Source: Trypanosoma brucei
Taxonomy: Eukaryota
Direction of reading: 5' to 3'
DNA length: 64,000 bases
Assembly: GCA_000002445.1 (NCBI GenBank)
Contig: CM000208.1
Span: forward strand, 1,664,001 to 1,728,000
The position numbers and the translations under genes were made by a program. The notes under the pieces were generated by a model, which saw nothing but the letters and a program-made list of their open reading frames with translations, was not told where the DNA came from and did not search any database. This document shows, piece after piece, positions 8,088-38,107 of this stretch; within the stretch, counting starts at the first letter, position 1, and every line of letters begins with the position of its first letter.

Positions 8088-9539
8088 ATGCCTCACTGCC
8101 CGCGGAGTCCACTGCGAACCCACACGGCTCCCTCGCTACCCCACGAGCAACCGGGTTCTTACACCGCAACTGTTACCTTACATGGTGAGCGGAGGGTAGC
8201 GGATGCATATGCATCTGAAGTTTGTTGGGGCGGCCAGACTGGCACAAGATGGGGCAGCACACACCGTGGGGTTGAGCAGGCTGACGTGTGGAAAACCGCA
8301 TTATGCCCACAAGCGGCATTTCAGAGAAGGGCGTTGTCCCTACTTGGTGAGGGTCATACGGGAACACGCCATGGCCTCCTAAAAGAGCCCCATTTGCGGT
8401 GCTGTGATGCAGGTGAAACCGCACGTCCTACGAGACATATTGAGCGCCACCGTAGTCCCACGACGGTTGGTGGCGATGCAGTTCAACAGCTTGGCACAAC
8501 ATTATGCCATAGTAGTTATTGCCGAATGCCTTCGGTGAATCCTCCGGCAACCGCGTACGAACGAGCCCTTGCAAAGCATGGGAAGCGACTCCTAGCTGCG
8601 GTCCAGAGGGAGCAGAGAAGAAAATTAGAAGAACAGCGGAATCGTCAAGTGCTTGAGCGCCGCAAGGCTCTTTACGAAAGGTATACCAAGTGGAATCGGC
8701 AGTCGACTCATAAGAACGGCTCGGAGCAAACACCAGCGGCGGCTTCCCGCTGTGAAGAGGTTGAGGCCCGGCAGCACAGTGCGCTCACAGTTACCATCGG
8801 CGCTTCTGAAACTGTTGGAAGTTCGCCTTCATCACTCCCAGGTGGGGGGACTTTAGAGACGACGTTACAAGCAACCAAACATTTGCTACTTGAACATACC
8901 ACAGAGGTTGTGGGTTGCTCTACAGCTCCGTTCAATGAGCCTGTTGGGGGAAAACATAACCAAATGCCGCGCAACACCATGTACCCCAAGGAACTACAGG
9001 AGCCACAGAACCATAATTTGGCAGAGTGCGAGTGCTCAACCTCGTTCATGGCGTACTTAGCGGGGAGGCTTTCACCGAGGAGACGCTGCGGGGGTAGTAG
9101 GTTTAATCCCGGATCTGGTGGCAGAGGCGACTTCATCCACGTGTGTTGGCCTCACTGCTTCACTCCACCGCGCCCCTTACCTTGCAGACAAGTTCCACAC
9201 GAATGGGGAAGAAACCTTGTTGCTTCCCTTGCAACGTGTGGTGACGCCGATGGTGAGGGACTGCGGTGGGGATTGCCGTCTCCATTGAGTTGCGTGCTTC
9301 CGGATGATATCCATCAAACTTCGCTGCGGCGCTCTCCTCGCACTGCTGAGGCAACCGCTCTTTCGCAGCGGTACTGCACATCTTTGGATGGTAGTGTAAA
9401 CGAATGTGCTGGGGAAGAACGGCATCTGCTCACCTTCATGCGACCAATGGACCAACCACGCCCCCTCTTGAGTTACCACAGACCGAAAACAATATGTGAG
9501 GATCAAGGAGGCGCTTATGCTGCTTCGGCATGCCCTTAA
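8088..9539 (+). CDS. hypothetical protein (long ORF in an otherwise gene-free 3.7-kb gap); true start may be an internal Met
   Basis: A 483-codon open frame is very unlikely by chance at ~50% GC. Its coiled-coil-like middle is 'YERALAKHGKRLLAAVQREQRRKLEEQRNRQVLERRKALYERY'. The N-terminal composition is odd (P/H/R/T-rich) and there is no recognisable domain. Confidence 0.4.
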   Translation: MPHCPRSPLRTHTAPSLPHEQPGSYTATVTLHGERRVADAYASEVCWGGQTGTRWGSTHRGVEQADVWKTALCPQAAFQRRALSLLGEGHTGTRHGLLKEPHLRCCDAGETARPTRHIERHRSPTTVGGDAVQQLGTTLCHSSYCRMPSVNPPATAYERALAKHGKRLLAAVQREQRRKLEEQRNRQVLERRKALYERYTKWNRQSTHKNGSEQTPAAASRCEEVEARQHSALTVTIGASETVGSSPSSLPGGGTLETTLQATKHLLLEHTTEVVGCSTAPFNEPVGGKHNQMPRNTMYPKELQEPQNHNLAECECSTSFMAYLAGRLSPRRRCGGSRFNPGSGGRGDFIHVCWPHCFTPPRPLPCRQVPHEWGRNLVASLATCGDADGEGLRWGLPSPLSCVLPDDIHQTSLRRSPRTAEATALSQRYCTSLDGSVNECAGEERHLLTFMRPMDQPRPLLSYHRPKTICEDQGGAYAASACP

Positions 9540-10469
9540 AGGTGTGGATGTGGTTACGCTTCCAAATTCGTTTGTTACCAGTGACAGTTTAACCAAGTTT
9601 TGGACTTTACTGCTGGAGAGTTGAGGAAGAGGGAACTGTAATTTTTTTTTACCTGTGCGTGCCGAGTGGTATATGTGTACGTATGTTTACTTCCAGCCTG
9701 AGCTGGCGAAAAGAGCAAATTGAGTCGGAATATGTAGTGGTTGCTGGGTTCCTCCGCTTGAAGTGTAGTGGGAAGTTGTACCCTGGTTGACTGAGGACTC
9801 TCTCTCACTACGCCCTCATGAATCTTGTTTCCACATCGCTCATCCGCCTGGCGGTTGCTTACAACGTTCGCATATGGTCGTAGTTACGCCTTTACAGGGG
9901 ACGTGTGCACTTGCGCCCCAAGCGTTGGGGTGAATGGGAGGGACATGTTTTTTCAACTCAGTGTTTTGGGGGTAACATTGGCGACGGCATTGAATGTCAG
10001 GATGTTCCCTTGTTTCCTGTGTAATAACGGCATTCTGCGCTTTACTTTTGTACATGCCTTTTTCTTTGATTCCTATCCTGTTGCTGGAAAGCAAGCACTT
10101 TCTATAATTGCTGTTCATCCCGGTGCCACGTGTGCCCTGCATTTTTTCAAGGGGTCCCTGATCGATCCATTATAACAGCAGCAGTGAACTTGGAAAGAGG
10201 GAAAAAGGACAATGTGGCACGCTACGTACACCTTGGTCTGAACAGTAAGGGTTATATGTCGTGGACTTGCTGCCGGCGGTCGCGTGATGACCCAGTGGTG
10301 TCTACGATTAGGGGCTGAGCGTTAGCCAAAGCAAAGCCGCTTTCCGAATCTGTTGGCCCCTACAAGGGCTAAAGGTCTCACGAACTCGAAATGTTAGCCA
10401 TGAGCCACCTTTTTTTTTGTGTATTCGTTTCTTGGAAACTGCGTATTTTGTTGCGGTGCATACATCCAG

Positions 10470-10496
10470 TTGTGTGTGTGTGTGTGTGTGTGTGTG
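10470..10496. repeat. (TG)n microsatellite
   Basis: 13 TG units seen directly. Confidence 0.9.
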
Positions 10497-11309
10497 GATC
10501 GAAACCCACAAAAACGAAGTGAATTTCCGGGGTTTAGACTCATTTCTCTATTTTCAGAACGAGTATACGGGGTTGTGTTAGTTTAACCATTACTGGAATA
10601 TTTTTCCGTGCACACCCTACACTGTGGTATTGTTATGATGGGAAACGACAGCAATAACGAGATGGTGCCCTCATCCTTTTTGATGTGCCATTTTATGTTT
10701 ACTTTGCATGCTTATCAACAATCTGCGCACCTTTTCATGCCTTCCTCTTCTGCACCACTGCCCTTTCCGATTTTGGTCCGCGTCACGGTACTGCGTGCTT
10801 GCTTAAGAATCTTCGGTTGAGTGACAAGTGTTATTGTGAAACTACCGGACTGAATCCAACGCACCTATTCAACAACTCACGCGAAGGCTCACTCGTAATA
10901 TACGATGTGGGGGTAGTTGGAAGGGATGCGTATGTGGCCGTTTTTTGTAAGCGCAACCTGCGGCAGAGTGATGTGGCTACTTTGCCTTCTTGTTTCTGTC
11001 TTGCCACAGTATTTCCCCTCTTTTTATTTTTTTCGCACTGTTCTGTCCCTGAAGTTTCTCTCGCCTTACGTAAAGTTCACGAAGAAAAAAAAAGCAAAAG
11101 GTCTACTAATCTGTGAGGAAGAAGAAACAGGGGAACCTCCCATACTTTTTTAGGTGCGACCACTTCCCCACACATAGGGGAGACGGTGATTAACACCCAA
11201 ACAAACAGAAAGGTTGCAGATCTTTTATTTCTGTAGTATCCACGTGTTGCTCGCTGTTCCGCAACTTAGTGCGAGCTGTTTGACTGGAGCCTTCTTTGGA
11301 TAATCCAGG

Positions 11310-13016
11310 ATGGAGGAGACGTACAGTCCCTTTACGGGACGTCAAGGCCAGTACAATCAGGGCTACAATGGTGGAGGGCGACGAGATAGCCGCGGCGGTA
11401 TGGGAGAAAGAATAAAACCCGTTGACTGGGGGAATGTTTCTCTCGTTCCCGGAAACTGGAAGGTTCTCGATGGTAAGGCGATCAAAAAGGCAGGGGAGAT
11501 AAAGACATCCACCCCAGAAGCGGGACAACTCAGCGAGGAGGAGGCGACGAAATGGCGAGAAGAACATGTGATCACCATATTTGGTGATGATTGTCCTCCA
11601 CCTATGTCATCGTTTGATCACCTGTGTGGAATCGTTCCACCATACCTTCTAAAGAAGCTCACCGCCCAGAATTTCACTGCACCAACTCCCGTGCAAGCGC
11701 AGTCATGGCCCGTTCTTCTATCTGGTCGTGACCTTGTGGGGGTTGCGAAGACAGGCTCCGGAAAGACGCTTGGCTTCATGGTTCCTGCCCTCGCCCACAT
11801 TGCAGTGCAGGAACCCCTACGCTCCGGTGACGGTCCAATGGTTGTTGTACTGGCTCCCACCCGCGAACTTGCTCAGCAGATTGAAGAAGAAACAAAAAAG
11901 GTTATCCCCGGGGACGTGTATTGCGGTTGCGTTTATGGAGGAGCACCAAAAGGACCCCAGCTTGGGTTGCTGCGGAGAGGTGTGCACATTCTCGTCGCCA
12001 CACCAGGTCGTTTGATAGACTTCTTGGATATTAAACGCATTAACTTGCATCGTGTCACCTATCTCGTTCTAGATGAAGCAGATCGCATGCTTGATATGGG
12101 ATTTGAGCCGCAGGTTCGCAAAATATGCGGCCAGATAAGGCCAGACCGGCAGACAGTCATGTTCTCCGCCACTTGGCCACGTGAGATTCAGCGACTGGCA
12201 GCAGAATTTCAGAAGCAGTGGATACGCATCAGTGTGGGCAGTACGGAACTTCAGGCTAACAAGGACGTCACTCAGCGTTTCATTCTCACACAAGAGTTTG
12301 CGAAGCAGGACGAGTTGAGGAAGCTCATGCAAGAACATCGGGAGGAACGCGTGCTGGTTTTCTGCAAGATGAAGCGGACTGCGGATGAGCTGGAGCGGCA
12401 ACTAAGACGATGGGGCTACGACGCAATGGCTATTCATGGTGACAAGGAGCAGCGGCAGAGGGAGTTCATCCTAGCGAGGTTCCGTAAAGATCCACGATTG
12501 TGCCTTGTCGCCACAGACGTTGCTGCTCGAGGTCTGGACATCAAACAATTGGAAACTGTTATAAACTACGACTTCCCCATGCAGATCGACGACTACGTAC
12601 ATCGTATTGGCCGCACAGGCCGTGCAGGCGCGAAGGGAGATGCGTTTACGCTTATCACGAAGAAGGAGGCTCAAATAACACCTTCAGTGTTGAAGGAACT
12701 TATTGGGATCCTGGAGCGCGCACAACAGGAAATACCTGATTGGATGATCGAATGGAACGCGCAACAGCCGAGATACCAGGTGAAGCGGAATCGCGGTATG
12801 AACGGGTTTGGAAGACATCAAAGCGCCCCCTTCCTGCGTAACGGTCACCGCCCATCGTTCTCAGCGAACGGGAATTATAGTGCTCACGGAAATGGTACAT
12901 TTGGCCTTGGAAAGCACAACGACGACGCTGTTCCCTTCTCGTCATCCGCTATTCAATACAAGCGATTTGACAGTGACGACGAGGCGGAACCGTCCCGCAA
13001 GAAATACGCGAGATAG
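11310..13016 (+). CDS. ATP-dependent DEAD-box RNA helicase, DDX5/DDX17/Dbp2 subfamily
   Basis: Q-motif 'FTAPTPVQ', motif I 'AKTGSGKT', motif Ia 'PTRELA', motif II 'LDEADRMLDMGF', motif III 'SAT', motif VI 'HRIGRTGRAG'. The C-terminal tail is low-complexity and Gly/Asn/Arg-rich. Confidence 0.9.
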   Translation: MEETYSPFTGRQGQYNQGYNGGGRRDSRGGMGERIKPVDWGNVSLVPGNWKVLDGKAIKKAGEIKTSTPEAGQLSEEEATKWREEHVITIFGDDCPPPMSSFDHLCGIVPPYLLKKLTAQNFTAPTPVQAQSWPVLLSGRDLVGVAKTGSGKTLGFMVPALAHIAVQEPLRSGDGPMVVVLAPTRELAQQIEEETKKVIPGDVYCGCVYGGAPKGPQLGLLRRGVHILVATPGRLIDFLDIKRINLHRVTYLVLDEADRMLDMGFEPQVRKICGQIRPDRQTVMFSATWPREIQRLAAEFQKQWIRISVGSTELQANKDVTQRFILTQEFAKQDELRKLMQEHREERVLVFCKMKRTADELERQLRRWGYDAMAIHGDKEQRQREFILARFRKDPRLCLVATDVAARGLDIKQLETVINYDFPMQIDDYVHRIGRTGRAGAKGDAFTLITKKEAQITPSVLKELIGILERAQQEIPDWMIEWNAQQPRYQVKRNRGMNGFGRHQSAPFLRNGHRPSFSANGNYSAHGNGTFGLGKHNDDAVPFSSSAIQYKRFDSDDEAEPSRKKYAR

Positions 13017-13656: not shown

Positions 13657-14418
13657 ATGAATACTATGCAGGGAATTATGAGAGATCTGCGGATGGTTAT
13701 GTCCCCCTTTCTTCTTGTTCTCGTTGTCGCAATTTCCACACCGGCCAGTGCTGCCCGTTTCTTGCTGCAAAACACTCAGCCAATATGCTTTGTTGAGGAG
13801 GTAGGAGAGGACACGCGGTTCTTGACGGGTGTTTACACGCGCAGTGACTCTCTGCCCTATCCACCTACTGTTAAAATGACCATCAAGTCACCGAGTGGCT
13901 CGGTGACGTGGGAGGGCAAAGTTGTGGCAGGAACAAACTCTTTCAGCGCTCCTGTCTCAGCTGGGTCCATTGGCAAGTATCAGATTTGTGTGAGTGTGAG
14001 CACATGGGGATTTAGGGCTTCAGATGATGGATCATCTGTTGTTATGGACGTTAACATTGACCAGAAAACAACTGTAATATCCAAGACGGAAGTGCCTATG
14101 CTGAAGAGACAGAATGTGGGGGGTATGGAAGTGTTCACTTTCCGAGACTTTGGGGGCCAACAAAAGGATATCTTGCGTCCACCAGAATACTTTAAACGCG
14201 TTGAAGGTGCGCTGTCGAAGCTGTTGATGCAGGTGAAAGACGTTAGTTCCGGTATTGATCACAACATTGAGCGTTTCTCACGCATGTTTACCACTTCAGA
14301 AAACACCCACAAGCGCATATGGGCGTTTGGTGTGCTTACCGTGCTGGTCACGATCGCCACCATATGGCTGCAGTTCCGCCTACTGAAGTCCACTCTGCGG
14401 GAGAAGAAGTTGGTGTGA
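13657..14418 (+). CDS. p24/emp24/GOLD-domain cargo receptor family protein
   Basis: N-terminal signal-peptide-like hydrophobic stretch and a luminal beta-rich region. A single C-terminal TM helix is followed by a short tail ending 'LLKSTLREKKLV', the characteristic p24 cytosolic tail with dibasic/KKxx-like signal. Confidence 0.65.
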   Translation: MNTMQGIMRDLRMVMSPFLLVLVVAISTPASAARFLLQNTQPICFVEEVGEDTRFLTGVYTRSDSLPYPPTVKMTIKSPSGSVTWEGKVVAGTNSFSAPVSAGSIGKYQICVSVSTWGFRASDDGSSVVMDVNIDQKTTVISKTEVPMLKRQNVGGMEVFTFRDFGGQQKDILRPPEYFKRVEGALSKLLMQVKDVSSGIDHNIERFSRMFTTSENTHKRIWAFGVLTVLVTIATIWLQFRLLKSTLREKKLV

Positions 14419-15143: not shown

Positions 15144-15792
15144 GCGATGGGCGATATTTGGCTCTCATCTCTGTGTGATGACATCACTAAGCGTTTCTGA
15201 CGGAATTCGTATGCTGAACACATAACAAACGCAAATCACTCCACACTGATAACAGCTCCGCAGGCCCCAATCCCTTACCGTACATTCGCAATGAGGCAAA
15301 CGATGAAAAAATAAATGGATCGCTGACTCTGAACACATTATCTGATTGACAGGACATTTCTTTGACTATACCTCTGAATTGTGCCCCACTTCTCTCTCCA
15401 TTCCTCCCTCTTTCTGTTGGTTTCCCCCCCCCCCCCTCCTGCTGCTGCCACTACTATTCCTCCAGGTGTCTATTGCTCCTGGTGCATTACCATTAACTGC
15501 GGTATGATTACAAAGCAATTTTATCCTCACCCTGACGTGAGTGGTTCTGTGACGAGAAACCGATTGACAATAATACCAAGATCTGCTATGAGCCCGTGAT
15601 GTTGTGTGCAGACGCTGTATTAATCCCGCCCCGTATGGCAAACTCATGCCCGGGGCGATTCATGCACAGCGGAGATGCGTATTGTCTCACTTCCCCTTAT
15701 CGTAAAGTCCACTTTCTTTCCTGTTGCGTGCCTGTTTCAAATGTACGCCCGCGCGGTTTTGTGAATGAGGCTCCCCATTCCGCTGTTGTTGC
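15144..15792. repeat. 649-bp dispersed/direct repeat, copy A (upstream of BUD31)
   Basis: Near-identical by eye to 17156..17803, differing only in the length of an internal poly-C run. Flanking sequence differs on both sides of both copies. Confidence 0.85.
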
Positions 15793-16104
15793 GGGGTAAT
15801 CTGGTTTTGTGCGTGGCGGGTGCTTGCGCTGCGTTTAGTAGACGTTAACCGATGGAGTTGTTACAAACCCCCCATTTATTCGGATTCGCTATTCCGCAGG
15901 GCGGTGGTTTAGCTCTTCGAGCACATTTGTAGTGCGGGGCGGTGCTGTTACTGCTACTGAGGTGGCTCACTGCTTGTTTAACCACGGTGCCCACTTTTTT
16001 TTCCTTTTTTTGACACCTTAGCTCTCCTCTTCTTCACTTTCGCGTTCTTCCGTTTTCAGGTTAGGAGCTGTGTAGTAAACCAACGAGTATTTTTTTTTTT
16101 AGGG

Positions 16105-16830
16105 ATGCCGAAAATCCGCCCAGGAATGAAGCGGCCGCCACCGGGGTTTGAAAAAATCAATGACAAACTTGACGAATACGACGCAGAGATGCGACTGGCT
16201 CTTTCTGAGGACCCTTCCCAGGCTGAACTACCGGTGCCGTCCAAACGAAAGGACAAACAAAATAAGGTTGAAGCGACTAAAGACAAGCATGCTCAAAGTG
16301 TACAGCGCGGTGATGGTGGTGTAGCGGGCCACTCGGACGGCGAATTAGACAAACCGGAACCCCCCTTGTGGCGAGTGGCGCGAATCAATCGGGAGCGCAC
16401 ACGTTATGTGTTTAATGCGTGTTTCCGAGAGCGGATAATTGCGGAGGAGGTTCTCGACTACTGCTGTGAGATGAATTTCATTGATGCTGGTCTCGTTCGG
16501 CGCTGGTCACTTGCTGGGTATGAACGGCTGTGTTGCAATACTTGCTGCTTACCGGGAGCTGCTAGTGAAGCGGCTCGTATGGTGAATAAGTTTGCAAACC
16601 GTGACAAAAAAGATCGGCGCACTAATGGTAATGATGACACCGGGGGTACCTGCATTTGCCGCGTGCCCGATGAGAAGCGTCTGGCCAAGGCGTTCACTAG
16701 GTGTATGGTGTGTGGGTGCTCTGGTTGTGGTTCGGGGGGTAAGCGCAAGCACGACACCGAGGAAAAAGATAGTGTATCCGACATGAAAAAAGTACGCACG
16801 GACGACTACGAGGTGAAATCGGGTAAATAG
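16105..16830 (+). CDS. BUD31: BUD31/G10 family pre-mRNA splicing factor homolog
   Basis: N-terminus 'MPKIRPGMKRPPPGFEKI...LDEYDAEMR' matches G10 'MPKV.T..K.PP.G.E.I...L.E.D.KMR'. Further matches are 'RYVF...F.RE.I..E...YC', 'W...GYE.LCC..C' and 'TCICRVP', with a C-terminal Cys cluster 'CMVCGCSGCG'. It carries a large basic/acidic insertion between the N-terminal and Cys-rich parts. Confidence 0.8.
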   Translation: MPKIRPGMKRPPPGFEKINDKLDEYDAEMRLALSEDPSQAELPVPSKRKDKQNKVEATKDKHAQSVQRGDGGVAGHSDGELDKPEPPLWRVARINRERTRYVFNACFRERIIAEEVLDYCCEMNFIDAGLVRRWSLAGYERLCCNTCCLPGAASEAARMVNKFANRDKKDRRTNGNDDTGGTCICRVPDEKRLAKAFTRCMVCGCSGCGSGGKRKHDTEEKDSVSDMKKVRTDDYEVKSGK

Positions 16831-17155
16831 TGAAGGATTTGACATTTTTTTTTTCCCCCTCCCGGAAAGTCGTTGCACCAATTGTGAATGAACTTCTTAT
16901 TCTTCGTATGCCCCCTCCCTTTTGTTGGGGTACCCACAAACCCCATCTGTTTCAAAACGGAGCATCCTTTTGTGCCTTTCATTTGCGCACCAACTGCAAT
17001 GGTAAATATTCTTTCACTGCCCATTTTGTGTATGAGAAAGTAAGATTGCTGGCTGGTAGCTCAGTAGCTCAGACAAACTTGTCGCTGTCGGCCTGCAGAA
17101 CGGCTCACGCCGGTGCCACGTTCGGGCGGGGGAACGGTGAAATTGGCTTCATTAC

Positions 17156-17803
17156 GCGATGGGCGATATTTGGCTCTCATCTCTGTGTGATGACATCACT
17201 AAGCGTTTCTGACGGAATTCGTATGCTGAACACATAACAAACGCAAATCACTCCACACTGATAACAGCTCCGCAGGCCCCAATCCCTTACCGTACATTCG
17301 CAATGAGGCAAACGATGAAAAAATAAATGGATCGCTGACTCTGAACACATTATCTGATTGACAGGACATTTCTTTGACTATACCTCTGAATTGTGCCCCA
17401 CTTCTCTCTCCATTCCTCCCTCTTTCTGTTGGTTTCCCCCCCCCCCCTCCTGCTGCTGCCACTACTATTCCTCCAGGTGTCTATTGCTCCTGGTGCATTA
17501 CCATTAACTGCGGTATGATTACAAAGCAATTTTATCCTCACCCTGACGTGAGTGGTTCTGTGACGAGAAACCGATTGACAATAATACCAAGATCTGCTAT
17601 GAGCCCGTGATGTTGTGTGCAGACGCTGTATTAATCCCGCCCCGTATGGCAAACTCATGCCCGGGGCGATTCATGCACAGCGGAGATGCGTATTGTCTCA
17701 CTTCCCCTTATCGTAAAGTCCACTTTCTTTCCTGTTGCGTGCCTGTTTCAAATGTACGCCCGCGCGGTTTTGTGAATGAGGCTCCCCATTCCGCTGTTGT
17801 TGC
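17156..17803. repeat. 649-bp dispersed/direct repeat, copy B (downstream of BUD31)
   Basis: See copy A. The two copies are 2012 bp apart start-to-start and bracket the BUD31 gene. Confidence 0.85.
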
Positions 17804-18064: not shown

Positions 18065-18442
18065 ATGATGGAGGACGATGAGGGTTTGGATGGGCAGCAG
18101 GAAGTGAGGGAAGTTGTAAAGGAGCGTCCCGTTAGGCTAACCAGCATTGTGCGGCATGACTGCTCCAAGTCCTTCGCTAACGATGTTCTTGAGATGGCCA
18201 ACGTCGTTCTTGACAACTTGCCTGCCGATCGTATGTATAAGGATGTTGCCACTCTCCTTAAGCGGCAGTTGGACGAAACTCAAAAGGGCACATGGCACGT
18301 CATCGCAGGGTCGCATTTCGGTGCGAATGTGACAAACGACGCAGAAACCATGGTGAACCTAAAGATCGACGATATGTATGTTCTTGTGTTTCGTTCTGGC
18401 CCTCCAGACCGTCCGCTAAATGCGAATGATGCAAAGGAGTAA
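18065..18442 (+). CDS. dynein light chain LC8 (DYNLL) family protein with N-terminal extension
   Basis: C-terminal 90 aa align to LC8: 'DVLEMANVVLDNL...MYKDVATLLKRQLDE...GTWHVIAGSHFGANVTNDAETMVNLKIDDMYVLVFRSG' versus canonical '...[22 protein letters not shown]...YFYLGQVAILLFKSG'. An acidic N-terminal extension of ~35 aa precedes it. Confidence 0.8.
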   Translation: MMEDDEGLDGQQEVREVVKERPVRLTSIVRHDCSKSFANDVLEMANVVLDNLPADRMYKDVATLLKRQLDETQKGTWHVIAGSHFGANVTNDAETMVNLKIDDMYVLVFRSGPPDRPLNANDAKE

Positions 18443-27257: not shown

Positions 27258-28727
27258 ATGATGCAAGGATTTCCCTCCTTAGGGGAAAAGGACCCAGCTG
27301 CCAAGCCACCAGCAGAGGGAAAACCGACCTCAGCTTCGGGAGAGAAACAACCGAGCGAAGCAGTACAGGGAATACCGCTATACCAAGGTGATGGTGATGA
27401 TAAAGAAGGATTGAAACGTTTTGTGGTACAGGGGTATAAGGATGTGTGGGCTGCAATATTATACATTTTATGCATTTTCGCCATCGCTGGAATCGGAGTA
27501 CACGCAATGTGGTCGAGAGGCTCCTCCGAAGAAAAACAAGAGGTTAAAAAAACAACAGCAGAAAATGAGCCTTCAAATTCAAAGTCCCTTTGGAGTGTCT
27601 ACTTTCTTGTTGGTGTGGCTGCTGCCGCTTCCATCGGTGCGGCGTCCGTGTCGTTTCTACTGATGCGTATGTTTCCACGCAAGACAATTCTTTTCGCAAA
27701 CATTGCCGCCATAATTATAAACATCATTTCAGCTTTGCTAGCAATATTATCAGGACACATGGTAAGCGGTATCCTCATGATGACATTATGTGCCCTGCAC
27801 ATAATGTGGTTTTTCTTTGCACGGCACCGAATTCCTTTTGCTGCAGAACTTCTCAAGGCCTCTATCGATGTGTTGTCTGGCTACAAGGCGGTATATTTAT
27901 TCAATGTCATGTTATGTGTTGGTTGCACAGGATTACTTATGCTGTGGGCAAACGCTTTTATGTGGACGTATCAAAGAAGTCAAGCGCAAGATTCATCATT
28001 CTCCGGTATAATTTACCTTTTCCTTATGCTTTTCTTATTTTGGACATCGCAGGTGACAACTAATCTGATGCATGTAACAACTGCTGGACTTACTGCTACA
28101 TGGTACTTTGCTGGTAAGGAGAATATGCCAAAGAATCCCACCCTCGCCTCATTCAAGCGAGGTACCACCACAAGCTTCGGCTCCATTTGCTTTGGGTCAC
28201 TGCTTGTGGCAATTATCCGTCTCATACGGTGGCTCGTGTCAACCGCAGAAGACAGTGAACATGAAATATTACGCTGTGTATTCCTTTGTATTATTGGTTG
28301 TTTGGAGAGGCTGATGGAATACTTCAACACATACGCATTTGTTCATGTTGCCATCTATGGTTGTGGGTACATTGAAGCAGCGAAAATGACATGGGAGTTG
28401 TGTAAACAGTGTGTGTTTTCTGCCCTGTTCAATGACACTCTGATTGATGTAACACTCGGGCTACTTGCTACTTGTGGTTCGCTACTGGTTGGTAGTGTTT
28501 TTGGTTTTCTCTTAAAATCCTGGGCAGCATTCGCGCTTGGTTTTGCCGTTTCTATATTGGTTCACCTCCTCATATTCTCCCCCGTGGGTAGTGCTGTAAC
28601 CACCTTATTCGTATGTTATGCGGAAGTGCCTGAGGGCCTTGAGCACTCATCCCCTGACTTGTACGCGGCTCTTCAGAGAACTGACCAAAACGGCACATCA
28701 AATGGAGCAGCACCTCCACGTGTGTAA
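27258..28727 (+). CDS. CTL/Pns1-like (SLC44 / 'Choline_transpo' family) multi-pass membrane transporter, array copy 1
   Basis: Conserved family core 'ATWYFAGKENMPKNPTLASFKRGTTTSFGSICFGSLLVAIIRLIRW' and 'CLERLMEYFNTYAFVHVAIYGCGYIEAAKMTWEL...NDTLIDVTLGLLATCGSLLVG'. These match Pns1/CTL 'WYF.....P..P...S..R.....GS.AFGSL..AI...IR' and 'CL...L.Y.N.YA....AIYG..F...AK.....L..N.......D.V.D..L..G.L.V'. The protein has ~10 predicted TM helices. The substrate cannot be inferred. Confidence 0.75.
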   Translation: MMQGFPSLGEKDPAAKPPAEGKPTSASGEKQPSEAVQGIPLYQGDGDDKEGLKRFVVQGYKDVWAAILYILCIFAIAGIGVHAMWSRGSSEEKQEVKKTTAENEPSNSKSLWSVYFLVGVAAAASIGAASVSFLLMRMFPRKTILFANIAAIIINIISALLAILSGHMVSGILMMTLCALHIMWFFFARHRIPFAAELLKASIDVLSGYKAVYLFNVMLCVGCTGLLMLWANAFMWTYQRSQAQDSSFSGIIYLFLMLFLFWTSQVTTNLMHVTTAGLTATWYFAGKENMPKNPTLASFKRGTTTSFGSICFGSLLVAIIRLIRWLVSTAEDSEHEILRCVFLCIIGCLERLMEYFNTYAFVHVAIYGCGYIEAAKMTWELCKQCVFSALFNDTLIDVTLGLLATCGSLLVGSVFGFLLKSWAAFALGFAVSILVHLLIFSPVGSAVTTLFVCYAEVPEGLEHSSPDLYAALQRTDQNGTSNGAAPPRV

Positions 28728-29407
28728 AACTTCTTAAGCTCATGCATATAAGGAGGATATGTGTTTGTCTCTCTTCTGCAAAAACTTTCCCTCCCATACC
28801 CAATTTCGCACACTCGCACCGTGTGAAGAAGAGTCAAATATCTTTTGTTTTTGATTCACTATATATAATGCACTGAAGCGTGTGTTATGCATGCAAATAA
28901 ATTGATAACATCGCTGACTCTTCTTTTTGTTCTATTATATTACTCTGTTCGATTTGCTCTTGACTATTTTGTATTTTCTTTCCGTTTCATGTGATGGATG
29001 CGAGGGACATAACCACAACATATTGAATGTGTCGCGGTGTAAACTGCTCTGTTGTGAGCGATCGGTATTGTGTTAGTATTTTTGTTCCAAGTGTTGAGGA
29101 AGTTGAATAGAGTCCTGATGCAGTCCACTCATGCGGTAAGCAGTGATGCGCCTTAGTGTGAGAATTCCTTTGATACTGTGTGATTTGCACACTTCCATTC
29201 TTCTTCGTCACTGGAAGCTGTTGCTACTGCATACTAATGCATCATCATTTCCTATTTCCTTTCCTCTTCCATAATTTTCCATTTTCTCTGTTTTTTAATC
29301 AAACAAATAAGATATATTGCAAGTGTACGCAATTGCTATCCAGCAACAAAGGGCTATAGACACTATTATCTCAGTGATAAGGTATTGTTTATTTCTGAAG
29401 AAGGACG

Positions 29408-30880
29408 ATGAACAAGCAATACGGAACAGAAACAAATCGCTACGACTATGATGTGTGGCAGGAAAATCAGCGGAATTGTCGGCAGGAATGTTCACCACAA
29501 GCTGTGCCGCTACAAGGAATACCGCTATACCAAGGTGATGGTGATGATAAAGAAGAGCTGAAACGTTTTGTGGTACAAGGGTATAAGGATGTGTGGGCTG
29601 CAATATTATACATTTTATGCATTCTTGCAACTATTGGGCTTGGAATATATAATATTGTGAAGCCTGATGCTTCAGGAGAAGAAGAAGAGGAAAGTGTCGT
29701 ATCGGTTAAATCATCTAACCCGTTTTCTGGTGTGTTTAAAAGTGTTTACATTTGGATTGCCGTTGCTGGTGGAATTGCCATAGCTGTGGCGTCGCTTTCC
29801 TTTCTCTTTATGAGGATGTTTCCTCGGAAGATTATTATTGTGGCAAATGTTGTCTCGATTATCATCAATATTGGAGGCGCCGCTGCCGCCATTGTGATGG
29901 GGGTGCTTCCACTTGGCATTGCTTTACTCATTATGTGCGCTATGCACATACTGTGGTTTTACTTTGCACGGCACCGAATTCCTTTTGCTGCAGAACTTCT
30001 CAAGGCCTCTATCGATGTGTTGTCTGGCTACAAGGCGGTATATTTATTCAATGTCATGTTATGTGTTGGTTGTGCGGGGTTTACCATATTATGGGGGTAC
30101 GCAGCTGTTCCTTCACTAGAAACTGCCAGTAACAAAGGTGACAGTGGGGCACTAGCGGTTTTGCTACTTCTTTTCCTTATGTTGGTTTTTTTTTGGTCAT
30201 CTCAAGTTACTGGAAATCTGATGCATGTAACAACTGCTGGACTTACTGCTACATGGTACTTTGCTGGTAAGGAGAATATGCCAAAGAATCCCACCCTCGC
30301 CTCATTCAAGCGAGGTACCACCACAAGCTTCGGCTCCATTTGCTTTGGGTCACTGCTTGTGGCAATTATCCGTCTCATACGGTGGCTCGTGTCAACCGCA
30401 GAAGGTAGTGAACATGAAATATTACGCTGTATATTCCTTTGTATTATTGGTTGTTTGGAGAGTTTGATGGAATACTTCAACACATACGCATTTGTTCATG
30501 TTGCCATCTATGGTTGTGGGTACATTGAAGCAGCGAAAATGACATGGGAGTTGTGTAAACAGTGTGTGTTTTCTGCCCTGTTCAATGACACTCTAATTGA
30601 TGTAACACTGAATCTACTTGTTACTTGTGGTTCGCTACTGGTTGGTAGTGTTGTCGGTCTACTCTTCAGATCCTGGGTAGCATTCGCGCTTGGTTTTGCC
30701 GTTTCTATATTGGTTCACCTCCTCATATTCTCCCCCGTAACCAGTGCTGTAACCACCTTATTCGTATGTTATGCGGAAGTGCCTGAGGGCCTTGAGCACT
30801 CATCCCCTGACTTGTACGCGGCTCTTCAGAGAACTGACCAAAACGGCACATCAAATGGAGCAGCACCTCCACGTGTGTAA
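29408..30880 (+). CDS. CTL/Pns1-like transporter, array copy 2
   Basis: Same conserved core as copy 1. Distinct N-terminus 'MNKQYGTETNRYDYDV' and a unique TM2-4 segment. Confidence 0.75.
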   Translation: MNKQYGTETNRYDYDVWQENQRNCRQECSPQAVPLQGIPLYQGDGDDKEELKRFVVQGYKDVWAAILYILCILATIGLGIYNIVKPDASGEEEEESVVSVKSSNPFSGVFKSVYIWIAVAGGIAIAVASLSFLFMRMFPRKIIIVANVVSIIINIGGAAAAIVMGVLPLGIALLIMCAMHILWFYFARHRIPFAAELLKASIDVLSGYKAVYLFNVMLCVGCAGFTILWGYAAVPSLETASNKGDSGALAVLLLLFLMLVFFWSSQVTGNLMHVTTAGLTATWYFAGKENMPKNPTLASFKRGTTTSFGSICFGSLLVAIIRLIRWLVSTAEGSEHEILRCIFLCIIGCLESLMEYFNTYAFVHVAIYGCGYIEAAKMTWELCKQCVFSALFNDTLIDVTLNLLVTCGSLLVGSVVGLLFRSWVAFALGFAVSILVHLLIFSPVTSAVTTLFVCYAEVPEGLEHSSPDLYAALQRTDQNGTSNGAAPPRV

Positions 30881-31579
30881 AACTTCTTAAGCTCATGCAT
30901 ATAAGGAGGATATGTGTTTGTCTCTCTTCTGCAAAAACTTTCCCTCCCATACCCAATTTCGCACACTCGCACCGTGTGAAGAAGAGTCAAATATCTTTTG
31001 TTTTTGATTCACTATATATAATGCACTGAAGCGTGTGTTATGTATGCATTTTACCGGCTTCACCATGATAAACCACATACTTGATGTAGTAGGTGAAATT
31101 AGATGCCGCAGTATCTGGTCGTGTGTAGCAGTAAATATATTAATAAATAACGACTCTTTATTATCGTAACTGCGCAAAAAGTGTTTAACATGAGCGATAT
31201 TTTTTATGATACGTACGACATTATCGTGAGCGATCGGTATTGTGTTAGTATTTTTGTTCCGTGTGTTGAGGAAGTTGAATAGAGTCCTGATGCAGTCCAC
31301 TCATGCGGTAAGCAGTGATGCGCCTTAGTGTGAAAATTCCTTTGATACTGTGTGATTTGCACACTTCCATTCTTCTTCGTCACTGGAAGCTGTTTCTACT
31401 GTATACTAATGCATCATCATTTCCTATTTCCTTTCCTCCTCCATCATTTTCCATTTTCTCTGTTTTGTAATCAAACAAATAAGATATATTGCAAGTGTAC
31501 GCAATTGCTATCCAGCAACAAAGGGCTATAGACACTATTATCTCAGTGATAAGGTATTGTTTATTTCTGAAGAAGGACG

Positions 31580-33052
31580 ATGAACAAGCAACACGGAACA
31601 GAAACAAATCGTTACGACTATGATGTGTCGCAGAAGGATCGGCGAAATTCTGATTCTCGGGAGTGTTCACCACATGCTGTGCCGCTACAAGGAATACCGC
31701 TATACCAAGGTGAAGGTAATAATCAAGAAGGATTGAAACGTTTTGTGGTACAAGGGTACAAGGATGTGTGGGCTGCAATATTATACATTTTATGCATTCT
31801 TGCAACTATTGGGCTTGGAATATATAATATTATGCGGAAGGATTCTTCGATGAAGGATGTAGAAAGCACTAATACAACAGCAGAAAATGAGCCTTCAAAT
31901 TCAAAGTCCCTTTGGAGTGTCTACTTTCTTGTTGGCGTGGCTGCTGCCGCTTCCATCGGTGCGGCGTCCGTGTCGTTTCTACTGATGCAGAAGTTTCCAC
32001 GCAAGACAATTCTTTTTGCAAACATTGCTGCCATAATTATAAACATCATTTCAGCTCTTTTGGCGTATCGATCAGGCTATATTGTGGCTTCTGCTGTAAT
32101 GATGACATTATGTGCCCTGCACATACTGTGGTTTTACTTTGCACGGCACCGAATTCCTTTTGCTGCAGAACTTCTCAAGGCCTCTATCGATGTGTTGTCT
32201 GGCTACAAGGCGGTATATTTATTCAATGTCATGTTATGTGTTGGTTGCACAGGATTACTTATACTGTGGGCAAACGCTTTTATGTGGGCGTTTCGGAGGG
32301 TTAAATGGGAGACATCCGCTTCTTTCGGGTGGCCTCTGCTTGTGTTCCTTATGCTTTTCTTATTTTGGACATCGCAGGTGACAACTAATCTGATGCATGT
32401 AACAACTGCTGGACTTACTGCTACATGGTACTTTGCTGGTAAGGAGAATATGCCAAAGAATCCCACCCTCGCCTCATTCAAGCGAGGTACCACCACAAGC
32501 TTCGGCTCCATTTGCTTTGGGTCACTGCTTGTGGCAATTATCCGTCTCATACGGTGGCTCGTGTCAACCGCAGAAGACAGTGAACATGAAATATTACGCT
32601 GTATATTCCTTTGTATTATTGGTTGTTTGGAGAGTTTGATGGAATACTTCAACACATACGCATTTGTTCATGTTGCCATCTATGGTTGTGGGTACATTGA
32701 AGCAGCGAAAATGACATGGGAGTTGTGTAAACAGTGTGTGTTTTCTGCCCTATTCAATGACACTCTGATTGATGTAACACTCGGGCTACTTGCTACTTGT
32801 GGTTCGCTACTGGTTGGTAGTGTTTTTGGTTTTCTCTTAAAATCCTGGGCAGCATTCGCGTTTGGTTTTGCCGTTTCTATATTGGTTCACCTCCTCATAT
32901 TCTCCCCCGTGGGTAGTGCTGTAACCACCTTATTCGTATGTTATGCGGAAGTGCCTGAGGGCCTTGAGCACTCATCCCCTGACTTGTACGCGGCTCTTCA
33001 GAGAACTGACCAAAACGGCACATCAAATGGAGCAGCACCTCCACGTGTGTAA
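31580..33052 (+). CDS. CTL/Pns1-like transporter, array copy 3 (mosaic of copy-2-type N-terminus and copy-1-type middle)
   Basis: N-terminus 'MNKQHGTETNRYDYDV' is copy-2-like. The middle 'TTAENEPSNSKSLWSVYFLVGVAAAASIGAASVSFLLM' is identical to copy 1. The C-terminal half is identical to copy 1. Confidence 0.75.
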   Translation: MNKQHGTETNRYDYDVSQKDRRNSDSRECSPHAVPLQGIPLYQGEGNNQEGLKRFVVQGYKDVWAAILYILCILATIGLGIYNIMRKDSSMKDVESTNTTAENEPSNSKSLWSVYFLVGVAAAASIGAASVSFLLMQKFPRKTILFANIAAIIINIISALLAYRSGYIVASAVMMTLCALHILWFYFARHRIPFAAELLKASIDVLSGYKAVYLFNVMLCVGCTGLLILWANAFMWAFRRVKWETSASFGWPLLVFLMLFLFWTSQVTTNLMHVTTAGLTATWYFAGKENMPKNPTLASFKRGTTTSFGSICFGSLLVAIIRLIRWLVSTAEDSEHEILRCIFLCIIGCLESLMEYFNTYAFVHVAIYGCGYIEAAKMTWELCKQCVFSALFNDTLIDVTLGLLATCGSLLVGSVFGFLLKSWAAFAFGFAVSILVHLLIFSPVGSAVTTLFVCYAEVPEGLEHSSPDLYAALQRTDQNGTSNGAAPPRV

Positions 33053-33725
33053 AACTTCTTAAGCTCATGCATATAAGGAGGATATGTGTTTGTCTCTCTT
33101 CTGCAAAAACTTTCCCTCCCATACCCAATTTCGCACACTCGCACCGTGTGAAGAAGAGTCAAATATCTTTTGTTTTTGATTCACTATATATAATGCACTG
33201 AAGCGTGTGTTATGCATGCAAATAAATTGATAACATCGCTGACTCTTCTTTTTGTTCTATTATATTACTCTGTTCGATTTGCTCTTGACTATTTTGTATT
33301 TTCTTTCCGTTTCATGTGATGGATGCGAGGGACATAACCACAACATATTGAATGTGTCGCGGTGTAAACTGCTCTGCTGTGAGCGGTCAGTATTGAGTTA
33401 ATATTTTTGTTCCGTGTGTTGAGGAAGTTGAATAGAGTCCTGATGCAGTCCACTCATGCGGTAAGCAGTGATGCGCCTTAGTGTGAAAATTCCTTTGATA
33501 CTGTGTGATTTGCACACTTCCATTCTTCTTCGTCACTGGAAGCTGTTGCTACTGCATACTAATGCATCATCATTTCCTATTTCCTTTCCTCTTCCATAAT
33601 TTTCCATTTTCTCTGTTTTGTAATCAAACAAATAAGATATATTGCAAGTGTACGCAATTGCTATCCAGCAACAAAGGGCTATAGACACTATTATCTCAGT
33701 GATAAGGTATTGTTTATTTCTGAAG

Positions 33726-35243: not shown

Positions 35244-35916
35244 AACTTCTTAAGCTCATGCATATAAGGAGGATATGTGTTTGTCTCTCTTCTGCAAAAA
35301 CTTTCCCTCCCATACCCAATTTCGCACACTCGCACCGTGTGAAGAAGAGTCAAATATCTTTTGTTTTTGATTCACTATATATAATGCACTGAAGCGTGTG
35401 TTATGCATGCAAATAAATTGATAACATCGCTGACTCTTCTTTTTGTTCTATTATATTACTCTGTTCGATTTGCTCTTGACTATTTTGTATTTTCTTTCCG
35501 TTTCATGTGATGGATGCGAGGGACATAACCACAACATATTGAATGTGTCGCGGTGTAAACTGCTCTGTTGTGAGCGGTCAGTATTGAGTTAATATTTTTG
35601 TTCCGTGTGTTGAGGAAGTTGAATAGAGTCCTGATGCAGTCCACTCATGCGGTAAGCAGTGATGCGCCTTAGTGTGAAAATTCCTTTGATACTGTGTGAT
35701 TTGCACACTTCCATTCTTCTTCGTCACTGGAAGCTGTTTCTACTGCATACTAATGCATCATCATTTCCTATTTCCTTTCCTCCTCCATCATTTTCCATTT
35801 TCTCTGTTTTTTAATCAAACAAATAAGATATATTGCAAGTGTACGCAATTGCTATCCAGCAACAAAGGGCTATAGACACTATTATCTCAGTGATAAGGTA
35901 TTGTTTATTTCTGAAG

Positions 35917-37470: not shown

Positions 37471-38107
37471 AACTTCTTAAGCTCATGCATATAAGGAGGA
37501 TATGTGTTTGTCTCTCTTCTGCAAAAACTTTCCCTCCCATACCCAATTTCGCACACTCGCACCGTGTGAAGAAGAGTCAAATATCTTTTGTTTTTGATTC
37601 ACTATATATAATGCACTGAAGCGTGTGTTATGTATGCAAATAAATTGATAACATCGCTGACTCTTCTTTTTGTTCTATTATATTACTCTGTTCGATTTGC
37701 TCTTGACTATTTTGTATTTTCTTTCCGTTTCATGTGATGGATGCGAGGGACATAACCACAACATATTGAATGTGTCGCGGTGTAAACTGCTCTGTTGTGA
37801 GCGGTCAGTATTGAGTTAATATTTTTGTTCCGTGTGTTGAGGAAGTTGAATAGAGTCCTGATGCAGTCCACTCATGCGGTAATAGGAGTGACATTCCAAT
37901 GTTTGTACATTATTTGTGTCGTTTTAAATTTATTACGTCTTTTTTTTTTTTGTGTGTGTGTGTGCTTCTTGTCTTTCTGATGTTGTGGTGATGTCTTCTA
38001 TCTGTTTTTTTTTCAGTTTCTATTCATTGCTTAATATTGTTTTTTTACTTCTTTTTTATTGTTGGTGTAGATACGGATTGTAGAAGTCGTGTTGTTGGTC
38101 TGCCTGA

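What the first reader, a model, noticed from the sequence alone, without database searches (positions are those of the whole stretch)
15144..17803. A single gene (BUD31/G10) is bracketed by two near-identical 649-bp direct repeats
Copies at 15144..15792 and 17156..17803 are virtually identical, differing only in poly-C run length. Their outer and inner flanks are unrelated. They sit in the intergenic regions on either side of the BUD31 gene with a 2012-bp period. They have no terminal poly(A), no obvious target-site duplication and no coding capacity. So they do not look like an ingi/RIME/SIDER retroposon. The geometry is what is left by a segmental tandem duplication followed by deletion. Alternatively, a sequence element has been copied to supply the same UTR/processing signals to two neighbouring genes. 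Such repeats are substrates for homologous recombination that would delete or circularise BUD31.
Basis: seen in the sequence. Interest (0 to 1): 0.5.

Follow-up and report, generated by a model that had tools for sequence, protein, structure and literature searches.

The report
Duplicated snoRNA gene cluster flanking BUD31
The two near-identical 649-bp repeats around the Trypanosoma brucei BUD31 gene are two copies of an already catalogued cluster of four small nucleolar RNA genes (TB10Cs2''); the only apparently new point is that this arrangement is shared by all seven Trypanosoma species examined and the two copies are kept alike by gene conversion.

Summary
Copies at 15144-15792 and 17156-17803 differ only by one C in a poly-C run, and their flanks are unrelated.

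The interpretation misses the point, because the repeat is not function-less DNA. The window is T. brucei TREU927 chr10 1,664,001-1,728,000. Each repeat is the published snoRNA cluster TB10Cs2'' (Doniger et al. 2010), deposited as two sets of four genes. Each copy holds three box C/D RNAs and one H/ACA-like hairpin. Published modification targets are SSU Gm1700, LSU-beta Am1201, LSU-alpha Gm1605, SSU Um1630 and, as a putative assignment, 7SL Psi226.

Both copies occur in three T. brucei assemblies, so this is not an assembly artefact.

The same four-gene cluster flanks BUD31 on both sides in T. vivax, T. cruzi and T. rangeli. T. theileri and T. grayi show variants, and T. congolense is consistent. 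Paralogs are 96-100% identical within a genome, while orthologs are 51-64% identical. The duplication is therefore old and homogenised by gene conversion, not recent.

Verdict: a known element, with a modest comparative-genomics footnote. Interest is low.

The parts
15144..15792 (+). Repeat copy A (649 nt) = snoRNA cluster TB10Cs2'' copy 1, in the emp24-BUD31 intergenic region
   Evidence: sequences identical to Doniger 2010 candidates 28 and 29
17156..17803 (+). Repeat copy B (648 nt) = snoRNA cluster TB10Cs2'' copy 2, in the BUD31-dynein light chain intergenic region
   Evidence: candidate 29 coordinate 1681621 = window 17621
15169..15255 (+). sno1 = TB10Cs2''C1, box C/D. C box GTGATGA at 15175-15181; D guide CAAATCACTCCACA at 15232-15245, followed by the D box CTGA; terminal stem CTGT/ACAG. 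Copy B: 17181-17267.
   Evidence: The guide plus D box is invariant in four species. The guide complement GTGGAGTGAT matches the T. brucei SSU primer TTTGGTCGGTGGAGTGAT. The literature target is SSU Gm1700, and the +5 rule predicts a G.
15296..15384 (+). sno2 = TB10Cs2''C2, box C/D. C box CGATGA at 15301-15306; D' guide AAATGGATCGCTGACT at 15313-15328, followed by CTGA; D box CTGA within 15371-15379. Copy B: 17308-17396.
   Evidence: The D' guide is invariant in five species, whereas the D guide is not conserved. The literature target is LSU-beta Am1201, and the +5 rule predicts an A.
15504..15592 (+). sno3 = TB10Cs2''C3, box C/D with variant boxes. C box ATGATTA at 15504-15510; D' guide at 15514-15531 followed by CTGA; C' TGTGACGA at 15548-15555; D guide ending ACCAAGATCTGCT at 15587; D box variant ATGA. 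Copy B: 17515-17603.
   Evidence: Identical to Doniger candidate 28. Boxes; conserved in 6-7 species. The guide complement AGCAGATCTTGGT matches a 28S rDNA primer over 12 nt. Literature targets are LSU-alpha Gm1605 and SSU Um1630.
15610..15678 (+). sno4 = TB10Cs2''C4, which by structure is an H/ACA-like single hairpin. Lower stem CGCTGT/ACAGCG; 8+8-nt pocket ATTAATCC/ATTCATGC; upper stem CGCCCCG/CGGGGCG; AGA box plus 3 nt. Copy B: 17621-17689.
   Evidence: Identical to Doniger candidate 29. Fold energy -28.7 kcal/mol, z = -3.3. 93% of cells are paired across 7 species, against 60% or less in slid registers, with no compensatory changes. The pocket complement GCATGAA-TG-GATTAA is an exact substring of a 25S rRNA primer. 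The pocket is the same as in Rfam S. pombe snR90 (weak hit). It is listed as the putative guide of 7SL Psi226.
15384..15445 (+). Polypyrimidine tract with the variable poly-C run, between sno2 and sno3. Copy B: 17396-17456.
   Evidence: A pyrimidine-rich spacer is present at this position in all species, but its sequence is not conserved. The poly-C length is 13/12 in strain 927, 9/9 in 427 and 11/10 in gambiense.
16105..16830 (+). BUD31/G10 coding sequence (241 aa), a single copy in the 1363-bp unique spacer between the two cluster copies
13657..14418 (+). Upstream neighbour, an emp24/p24 family gene (context for synteny)
   Evidence: the same gene order is seen in T. vivax and T. cruzi
18065..18442 (+). 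Downstream neighbour, a dynein light chain type 1 gene (context for synteny)
   Evidence: the same gene order is seen in all Trypanosoma loci

Best explanation
Each 649-bp repeat is one copy of the T. brucei snoRNA gene cluster TB10Cs2''. It lies on the sense strand of a Pol II polycistron and encodes three box C/D guide RNAs and one H/ACA-like guide RNA. The RNAs are cut out of the polycistronic precursor (established for trypanosomatid snoRNA clusters; not shown here). [quoted passage not shown] Two copies exist because gene dosage is the main way to raise output in a genome without gene-specific promoters (inference). The duplication is old: it dates at least to the common ancestor of the Trypanosoma species sampled, with one copy on each side of BUD31. 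Recurrent non-crossover gene conversion keeps the copies nearly identical, and the converted tract is limited to the cluster plus about 25-190 bp on either side. BUD31 simply occupies the unique spacer. Because it is a spliceosome component, crossover or single-strand-annealing events that would pop it out are presumably removed by selection (inference).
For: Identity:
- Doniger 2010 supplementary candidates 28 and 29 (chr10 1679504 and 1681621) are exact substrings of the repeat.
- GeneDB holds two sets, snoRNA.0100-0103 and .0104-0107.
- Expression was shown by primer extension and by NOP58 knock-down.

Targets:
- RiboMeth-seq and HydraPsiSeq tables assign C1 to SSU Gm1700, C2 to LSU-beta Am1201, C3 to LSU-alpha Gm1605 and SSU Um1630, and C4 to 7SL Psi226.
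- My +5-rule readings predict G, A and G for the conserved guides.
- Guide complements match published SSU, 28S and 25S primer sequences.

Conservation pattern:
- Between species only boxes, guides and the hairpin are conserved.

Not an artefact:
- Both copies are present in TREU927, the 427 chromosome-scale assembly and gambiense DAL972.

Ancient bracket:
- The order s1-s2-s3-s4 occurs on both sides of BUD31 in T. brucei (3 strains), T. vivax, T. cruzi and T. rangeli.
- T. theileri (gapped) and T. grayi show variants, and T. congolense is consistent.

Concerted evolution:
- Paralog identity is 99.5-99.8% in T. brucei strains, 98.3% in T. vivax (no substitutions) and 96.4% in T. cruzi, against 51-64% for orthologs.
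- Within T. brucei, site 237 is T/T in 927 but G/G in both 427 and gambiense; site 546 is A/A, G/G and G/A; and poly-C length tracks strain.
Against: - I could not read T. brucei rRNA or 7SL sequences, so target pairing rests on primer fragments, on heterologous rRNA primers and on the literature.
- The SSU numbering of the primer table and of the Nm table do not obviously coincide for C1.
- The fourth RNA was classified experimentally as C/D (NOP58-dependent), whereas its structure is H/ACA-like.
- The hairpin shows no compensatory covariation because its stems are invariant.
- The T. congolense evidence comes from one end-redundant 2.7-kb contig, and the T. theileri and T. rangeli loci contain scaffold gaps.
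- The dosage rationale and the 'BUD31 is protected by selection' step are inferences. BUD31 essentiality in T. brucei was not established here. I found only its presence in the trans-spliceosome structure.
Confidence: 0.9

Rival explanations
1. A recent, lineage-specific segmental duplication (tandem duplication of cluster plus BUD31 followed by deletion of the second BUD31), with the near-identity simply reflecting youth.
For: There are no substitutions between the two copies in TREU927, and the boundaries are sharp. The geometry equals 1.32 units of a 2012-bp tandem repeat.
Against: Both copies sit in the same two intergenic regions in T. vivax, T. cruzi, T. rangeli and T. theileri, with T. 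grayi as a variant. In each genome the paralogs are near-identical, while orthologs are 51-64% identical. Independent duplication into the same two spacers in six or more lineages is very unlikely. Strain-specific alleles shared by both copies require exchange after the duplication.
Confidence: 0.04
2. The repeat is a cis-acting mRNA-processing or UTR module (polypyrimidine tract, spliced-leader acceptor, polyadenylation signals) copied to serve two neighbouring genes.
For: Each copy lies between an upstream stop codon and the next gene, and it contains a long polypyrimidine tract. Some T. brucei snoRNA clusters lie in annotated 3' UTRs or in spliced-leader/poly(A) 'new transcripts'.
Against: Interspecies conservation is confined to the snoRNA boxes, guides and hairpin, and the pyrimidine tract is not conserved in sequence. 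BUD31 and the dynein light chain gene each have their own pyrimidine tracts in unique DNA downstream of the repeats. The RNAs are experimentally detected snoRNAs.
Confidence: 0.04
3. A mobile or retroposed element (ingi/RIME/SIDER-like) or an assembly duplication.
For: None beyond the fact that it is a dispersed repeat.
Against: There is no poly(A) tail, no target-site duplication and no reverse-transcriptase-like ORF, and there are only two copies in the window. Two gene sets are deposited for the genome. Both copies are present in three independent T. brucei assemblies.
Confidence: 0.01

Closest known systems
T. brucei snoRNA cluster TB10Cs2'' (C1-C4), Doniger et al. 2010, BMC Genomics 11:615; GeneDB Tb927_10_v5.snoRNA.0100-0107
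   Same: It is this element. Candidates 28 and 29 match base for base at the corresponding chromosome coordinates, and two copies are deposited.
   Different: As far as I could read, the paper describes a cluster 'repeated' twice and does not mention that a protein-coding gene separates the copies. It classes all four RNAs as C/D, whereas the fourth has H/ACA-like architecture here.
Typical trypanosomatid reiterated snoRNA clusters (Liang et al. 2005 nomenclature; Michaeli et al. 2011, PMC3273796)
   Same: It is a mixed C/D plus H/ACA-like cluster on the sense strand of a Pol II polycistron, lying between protein-coding genes and present in more than one copy.
   Different: Typical clusters are described as repeated clusters. 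Here the two copies are 1363 bp apart with a conserved single-copy gene in the spacer. TB10Cs1, 50 kb downstream, has copies 1.5 to 8 kb apart (coordinates).
Concerted evolution of tandem gene arrays in T. brucei (Jackson 2007, PMC1855330)
   Same: Paralogs are homogenised within a genome while orthologs diverge. Dosage in a promoter-less polycistronic genome is the usual rationale given for such arrays (abstract).
   Different: That work concerns protein-coding tandem arrays. Here the converted unit is a non-coding RNA cluster, and the two copies are interrupted by an unrelated gene that is not converted or duplicated.
S. pombe snR90 (Rfam RF01442) H/ACA snoRNA, 5' hairpin
   Same: The pseudouridylation-pocket sequences are the same (AUUAAUC / UUCAUGC), with the same stem layout followed by an AGA/ACA-type box (alignment). 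This implies the same conserved LSU target, GCAUGAA-U-GGAUUAA.
   Different: The match scores only 24.8 bits against a gathering score of 80, so the element is not a member by Rfam criteria. The trypanosome RNA is a single hairpin of about 69 nt with an AGA box, not a two-hairpin H/ACA RNA.

Membership tests
Box C/D snoRNA (sno1-sno3) | C box (RUGAUGA) near the 5' end and D box (CUGA) near the 3' end, with internal C'/D' boxes | tested here: met
   sno1 has GTGATGA...CTGA and sno2 has CGATGA...CTGA, each with an internal CTGA D' box. The boxes are conserved in 4-5 species. sno3 has variant boxes (ATGATTA and ATGA), which are also conserved.
Box C/D snoRNA (sno1-sno3) | A guide of at least 10 nt complementary to rRNA, ending next to D or D', with the target nucleotide opposite the 5th position upstream | tested here: inconclusive
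   The sno1 guide complement overlaps the T. brucei SSU primer over 10 nt. The sno3 guide complement matches a 28S primer over 12 nt. The predicted target bases G, A and G agree with published Gm1700, Am1201 and Gm1605.
Box C/D snoRNA (sno1-sno3) | Association with or dependence on NOP58/fibrillarin | not testable with these tools
   Doniger 2010 report NOP58-dependence for candidates 28 and 29. NOP1 silencing lowers the assigned Nm sites.
Trypanosomatid H/ACA-like snoRNA (sno4) | A single hairpin with an internal pocket, an AGA (or ACA) box 3 nt from the 3' end, and 14-16 nt between the pocket top and the box | tested here: met
   The minimum-free-energy fold gives a 6-bp stem, an 8+8-nt pocket, an upper stem, then AGA plus 3 nt. 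There are 15 nt between the upper stem and AGA. 93% of cells are paired in 7 species, against 60% or less in slid registers.
Trypanosomatid H/ACA-like snoRNA (sno4) | Bipartite pocket complementarity flanking a target U | tested here: met
   The pocket complement GCATGAA-[TG]-GATTAA equals the 25S rRNA primer GCATGAATGGATTAACGAGATTC. The pocket is identical to the snR90 consensus. The test used heterologous LSU sequence, not T. brucei LSU.
Trypanosomatid H/ACA-like snoRNA (sno4) | CBF5 dependence | not testable with these tools
   The literature conflicts. The RNA was classified as C/D by NOP58 silencing, but it is later listed as a putative pseudouridine guide for 7SL Psi226.
Trypanosomatid H/ACA-like snoRNA (sno4) | Compensatory covariation in the stems | tested here: inconclusive
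   There are no double changes. Most stem pairs are invariant, with a few one-sided G-U changes and occasional mismatches, so this says nothing for or against the structure.
Reiterated trypanosomatid snoRNA cluster | Several snoRNA genes of both classes, closely spaced on the polycistron's sense strand and present in repeated copies | tested here: met
   Four genes lie within about 510 bp on the + strand, like all flanking ORFs. There are two copies.
Reiterated trypanosomatid snoRNA cluster | Copies directly head-to-tail (tandem) | tested here: not met
   The copies are separated by 1363 bp of unique DNA carrying BUD31. T. rangeli does show apparently adjacent copies on each side of BUD31, but across scaffold gaps.
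Retroposon (ingi/RIME/SIDER) | 3' A-rich tail, target-site duplication, many dispersed copies | tested here: not met
   There is no A tail, no target-site duplication, and only two copies in 64 kb. The SIDER signature itself was not searched.
Concerted evolution by gene conversion | Paralogs are much more alike than orthologs, including in unconstrained spacer; positional orthology of both copies; lineage-specific alleles shared by the paralogs | tested here: met
   Identity is 96-100% within genomes against 51-64% between species. The flanking genes are the same. Sites 237 and 546 and the poly-C length show strain-specific alleles shared by both copies.

The most novel reading that the evidence does not exclude
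A spliceosome gene (BUD31) has stayed trapped between two copies of a snoRNA cluster since before the divergence of the Trypanosoma species sampled. The pair exchanges sequence only by non-crossover conversion. The embedded, presumably essential gene acts as a 'lock': any crossover or single-strand-annealing collapse of the duplication to one copy would delete it, so the lock enforces the two-copy snoRNA dosage. This would be a general way for a promoter-less genome to stabilise a minimal gene-dosage duplication.
Probability: 0.2. Interest if true: 0.4.

Novelty: already known. Interest (0 to 1): 0.2.

Why it matters
It matters little for the element itself, because the cluster, its two copies, its expression and its modification targets are published.

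Three small points may be useful:
1. The layout cluster-BUD31-cluster is conserved across the genus, with textbook concerted evolution. That makes it a compact natural system for measuring gene-conversion tract length and the balance between crossover and non-crossover repair in trypanosomes.
2. The RNA named 'C4' appears to be an H/ACA-like guide for a universally conserved LSU site, so the catalogue name and class may need correcting.
3. Genome annotations that call hypothetical ORFs across these repeats (for example in T. b. gambiense) are probably wrong.

Tried and rejected
- Rfam at gathering thresholds on the whole window gave no hits. A permissive scan gave only a sub-threshold H/ACA match. 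T. brucei snoRNAs of this cluster are therefore not in Rfam, so 'no Rfam hit' was not evidence of absence.
- Literal sequence searches of paper main texts found nothing. Supplements of two Michaeli-lab papers lacked the sequences. The oligo table of Chikne 2019 contains no oligo for this cluster. The 2005 catalogue (Liang et al.) is not held.
- I tried to extend the comparison beyond Trypanosoma. Three unidentified kinetoplastid loci with BUD31 (41-48% identity; gene order MCM-BUD31-MFS) have neither the snoRNAs nor any flanking repeat. Their taxonomic identity is unknown, so they do not date the duplication.
- A covariation test of the sno4 hairpin was uninformative because the stems are invariant.
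- I considered the ORFs of 87-106 aa inside the repeats as possible genes and rejected them. They are not conserved, and the conserved blocks ignore reading frame.
- I could not reconcile SSU numbering between the primer table and the Nm table. I also could not explain the published SSU Um1630 target of C3 from the D' guide. It fits only if CTGC is read as an alternative D box.
Full report
**1. Observation**

The repeat is real and is exactly as described. Copy A is 15144-15792 (649 nt) and copy B is 17156-17803 (648 nt). They align with no mismatches and a single 1-nt gap in a poly-C run, 13 versus 12. With 200 nt of flank added on each side, nothing beyond the repeat aligns. There is no A-rich tail and no target-site duplication, and there are no further copies in the 64-kb window. 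The ORF between the copies (16105-16830) is BUD31 (PF01125, E=2.4e-38). All large ORFs of the window are on the + strand, as expected for a trypanosomatid polycistron.

**2. Organism and locus**

The BUD31 protein is 100% identical to T. b. gambiense DAL972 over the annotated part. The exact 241-aa protein is encoded on a 4.1-Mb chromosome of assembly GCA_003543875.1, which is 99.4% identical to the window over 20.7 kb. Coordinates in Doniger et al. 2010 place the window at Tb927 chr10 (v4) 1,664,001-1,728,000. Candidate 28 starts at 1,679,504, which is window 15,504. Candidate 29 starts at 1,681,621, which is window 17,621.

**3. What the repeat is**

The first clue came from T. congolense. 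Its BUD31 contig has blocks of 84-100% identity to the repeat downstream of BUD31, in otherwise unalignable intergenic DNA. Those blocks carry C boxes and D boxes at about 80-nt spacing, followed by a GC-rich hairpin ending in AGA.

The supplementary candidate table of Doniger et al. 2010 (PMC3091756) contains two sequences that are exact substrings of the repeat. These were named TB10Cs2''C3 and C4. Two further C/D RNAs (C1, C2) were found by the authors in the flank. GeneDB holds two sets of four genes, snoRNA.0100-0103 and .0104-0107. Expression was shown by primer extension (candidate 28 was abundant), and classification was by NOP58 or CBF5 knock-down.

Rajan et al. 2022 (PMC9283944) give these assignments:

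| RNA | Assigned modification |
|---|---|
| C1 | SSU Gm1700 |
| C2 | LSU-beta Am1201 |
| C3 | SSU Um1630 and LSU-alpha Gm1605 |
| C4 | 7SL Psi226 (putative guide) |

**4. Anatomy in window coordinates**

- **sno1/C1 (15169-15255).** The C box is GTGATGA, and the conserved D guide is CAAATCACTCCAC-A-CTGA. The guide complement overlaps the T. brucei SSU primer TTTGGTCGGTGGAGTGAT. The +5 rule predicts a G.
- **sno2/C2 (15296-15384).** The C box is CGATGA, and the conserved D' guide is AAATGGATCGCTGACT-CTGA. The +5 rule predicts an A.
- **sno3/C3 (15504-15592).** The boxes are variants: C box ATGATTA and C' box GTGACGA. The invariant 3' guide is ACCAAGATCTGCT, followed by ATGA. The guide complement AGCAGATCTTGGT matches a 28S rDNA primer. 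The +5 rule predicts a G.
- **sno4/'C4' (15610-15678).** This is a single hairpin of -28.7 kcal/mol with z = -3.3. It has a lower stem CGCTGT/ACAGCG, an 8+8-nt pocket, an upper stem CGCCCCG/CGGGGCG, 15 nt from the upper stem to AGA, and then 3 nt.

For sno4, the pocket complement GCATGAA-TG-GATTAA is an exact substring of a 25S rRNA primer. The pocket is identical to that of the 5' hairpin of S. pombe snR90 in a sub-threshold Rfam match. Across seven species the stems and pocket are essentially invariant and only the apical loop varies. 93% of cells pair, against 60% or less in slid registers, but there are no compensatory changes. On structure this is an H/ACA-like RNA. That fits its later use as a pseudouridine guide, and it conflicts with its C/D name and its NOP58-based classification.

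Copy B holds the same features at +2012 (sno1, sno2) and +2011 (sno3, sno4).

**5. Not an artefact and not recent**

Both copies are present in the 427 assembly (99.8% identical to each other) and in gambiense (99.5%). A short T. equiperdum-type contig breaks inside the repeats.

BUD31 loci from other species show the same two-sided layout. A motif map gives:

| Species | Layout |
|---|---|
| T. brucei (3 strains), T. vivax, T. cruzi | emp24 - [s1 s2 s3 s4] - BUD31 - [s1 s2 s3 s4] - dynein light chain |
| T. rangeli | about two copies on each side of BUD31 (scaffold gaps) |
| T. theileri | [s3 s4] - GP63 - gap - [s3 s4] - BUD31 - [s1-s4] |
| T. grayi | [s3 s4] - GP63 - BUD31 - [s1-s4] |
| T. 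congolense | one end-redundant contig, BUD31 - [s1-s4] - BUD31 start; this is the path expected through a repeat-spacer-repeat graph, or a true tandem |

Three BUD31 loci from unidentified non-Trypanosoma kinetoplastids have a different gene order, no snoRNA motifs and no flanking repeats.

**6. Concerted evolution**

Within-genome paralog identity is 99.5-99.8% in T. brucei and 98.3% in T. vivax. The T. vivax copies have no substitutions in 715 bp and differ only by a 12-nt CCTT-repeat indel. In T. cruzi identity is 96.4%, with 20 differences of which 15 are in spacer. Ortholog identity over the same segments is 51-64%, and spacers between the snoRNAs are essentially unalignable between species.

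Purifying selection cannot explain identical spacers. With both copies in the same two intergenic positions in all these lineages, repeated independent duplication is far less parsimonious than one old duplication homogenised by gene conversion.

Within T. brucei the process is visible directly:
- Site 237 is T in both 927 copies and G in both copies of 427 and gambiense.
- Site 546 is A/A in 927, G/G in 427 and G/A in gambiense.
- Site 604 is a copy-B-specific A in 427 and gambiense but G/G in 927.
- Poly-C length follows strain: 13/12, 9/9 and 11/10.

The unique BUD31 spacer differs by 12 substitutions between 927 and the other two strains. The repeats are therefore not unusually slow-evolving; they are being exchanged between copies.

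**7. Mechanism**

Shown here or in the cited papers:
- The repeats encode four expressed guide RNAs with conserved guides.
- They are duplicated on both sides of BUD31 across the genus.
- The copies co-evolve.

Established background, and the literature cited there: trypanosomatid snoRNA clusters lie on the sense strand of Pol II polycistrons and are processed from the precursor.

Inferred:
- Two copies serve dosage.
- Homogenisation is by non-crossover conversion limited to the cluster plus about 25-190 bp on either side.
- Crossover or single-strand-annealing products would delete BUD31 and are selected against. BUD31 is a resolved component of the trypanosomatid trans-spliceosome.

**8. Comparison and novelty**

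The element is already known and annotated. I found no mention in the readable literature that a protein-coding gene separates the two copies. I also found no mention that the layout is genus-wide with concerted evolution. This is an incremental observation of a well-known process (compare Jackson 2007 on T. brucei tandem arrays).

The retroposon and assembly-artefact ideas are refuted.

**9. Verdict**

The novelty class is 'already known', and interest is about 0.2.

Noticed in passing
window 27258-38000: A five-copy tandem array of choline-transporter-like genes (PF04515), with a period of 2153-2227 bp. Copies 1-3 give 489-490-aa ATG ORFs. Copies 4 and 5 give only TTG-start or shortened ORFs (33642-35243, 36307-37470) and may be degenerate.
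   Followed up: partly
window 15610-15678 and 17621-17689: The RNA catalogued as C/D snoRNA TB10Cs2''C4 has the architecture of a trypanosomatid H/ACA-like RNA. Its pocket is complementary to the conserved LSU sequence GCAUGAA-U-GGAUUAA. The name and class look wrong, or the NOP58 dependence reflects co-processing with the adjacent C3, which ends only about 18 nt upstream.
   Followed up: yes
L003 (T. b. gambiense) 10001-10618, 9069-9527 (-), 11480-11797 (+): The gambiense annotation starts BUD31 at a later ATG (205 aa against the 241-aa ORF). It also calls hypothetical ORFs across both snoRNA repeats, which are probably spurious gene models.
   Followed up: no
L007 3683-5626 (T. theileri); L011 3255-5351 (T. 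grayi): A GP63/leishmanolysin gene sits next to an extra or upstream partial cluster copy (s3-s4 only) in these two species, in the position where emp24 lies in the other species. This suggests the cluster repeats have mediated or accompanied local rearrangement.
   Followed up: partly
window 15384-15445 and 17396-17456; same position in all species: A polypyrimidine tract separates sno2 from sno3 in every species, conserved in composition but not in sequence. Its poly-C or CCTT microsatellite is the main source of length differences between copies and strains. It could act as a spliced-leader or poly(A) signal that splits the cluster into two transcripts. This was not testable here.
   Followed up: no
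L004 (T. congolense) 1-514 and 2221-2733: The contig is end-redundant (99.8% identity). Either BUD31 plus the cluster is a true tandem unit of 2220 bp in T. congolense, or the assembler looped through the repeat-spacer-repeat structure.
   Followed up: partly
just beyond the window end (chr10 1,729,160-1,738,963): According to coordinates in Doniger's supplementary file 1, another repeated snoRNA cluster (TB10Cs1) starts about 1.2 kb past the 3' end of this window. This stretch of chr10 therefore carries two snoRNA loci within about 50 kb.
   Followed up: no
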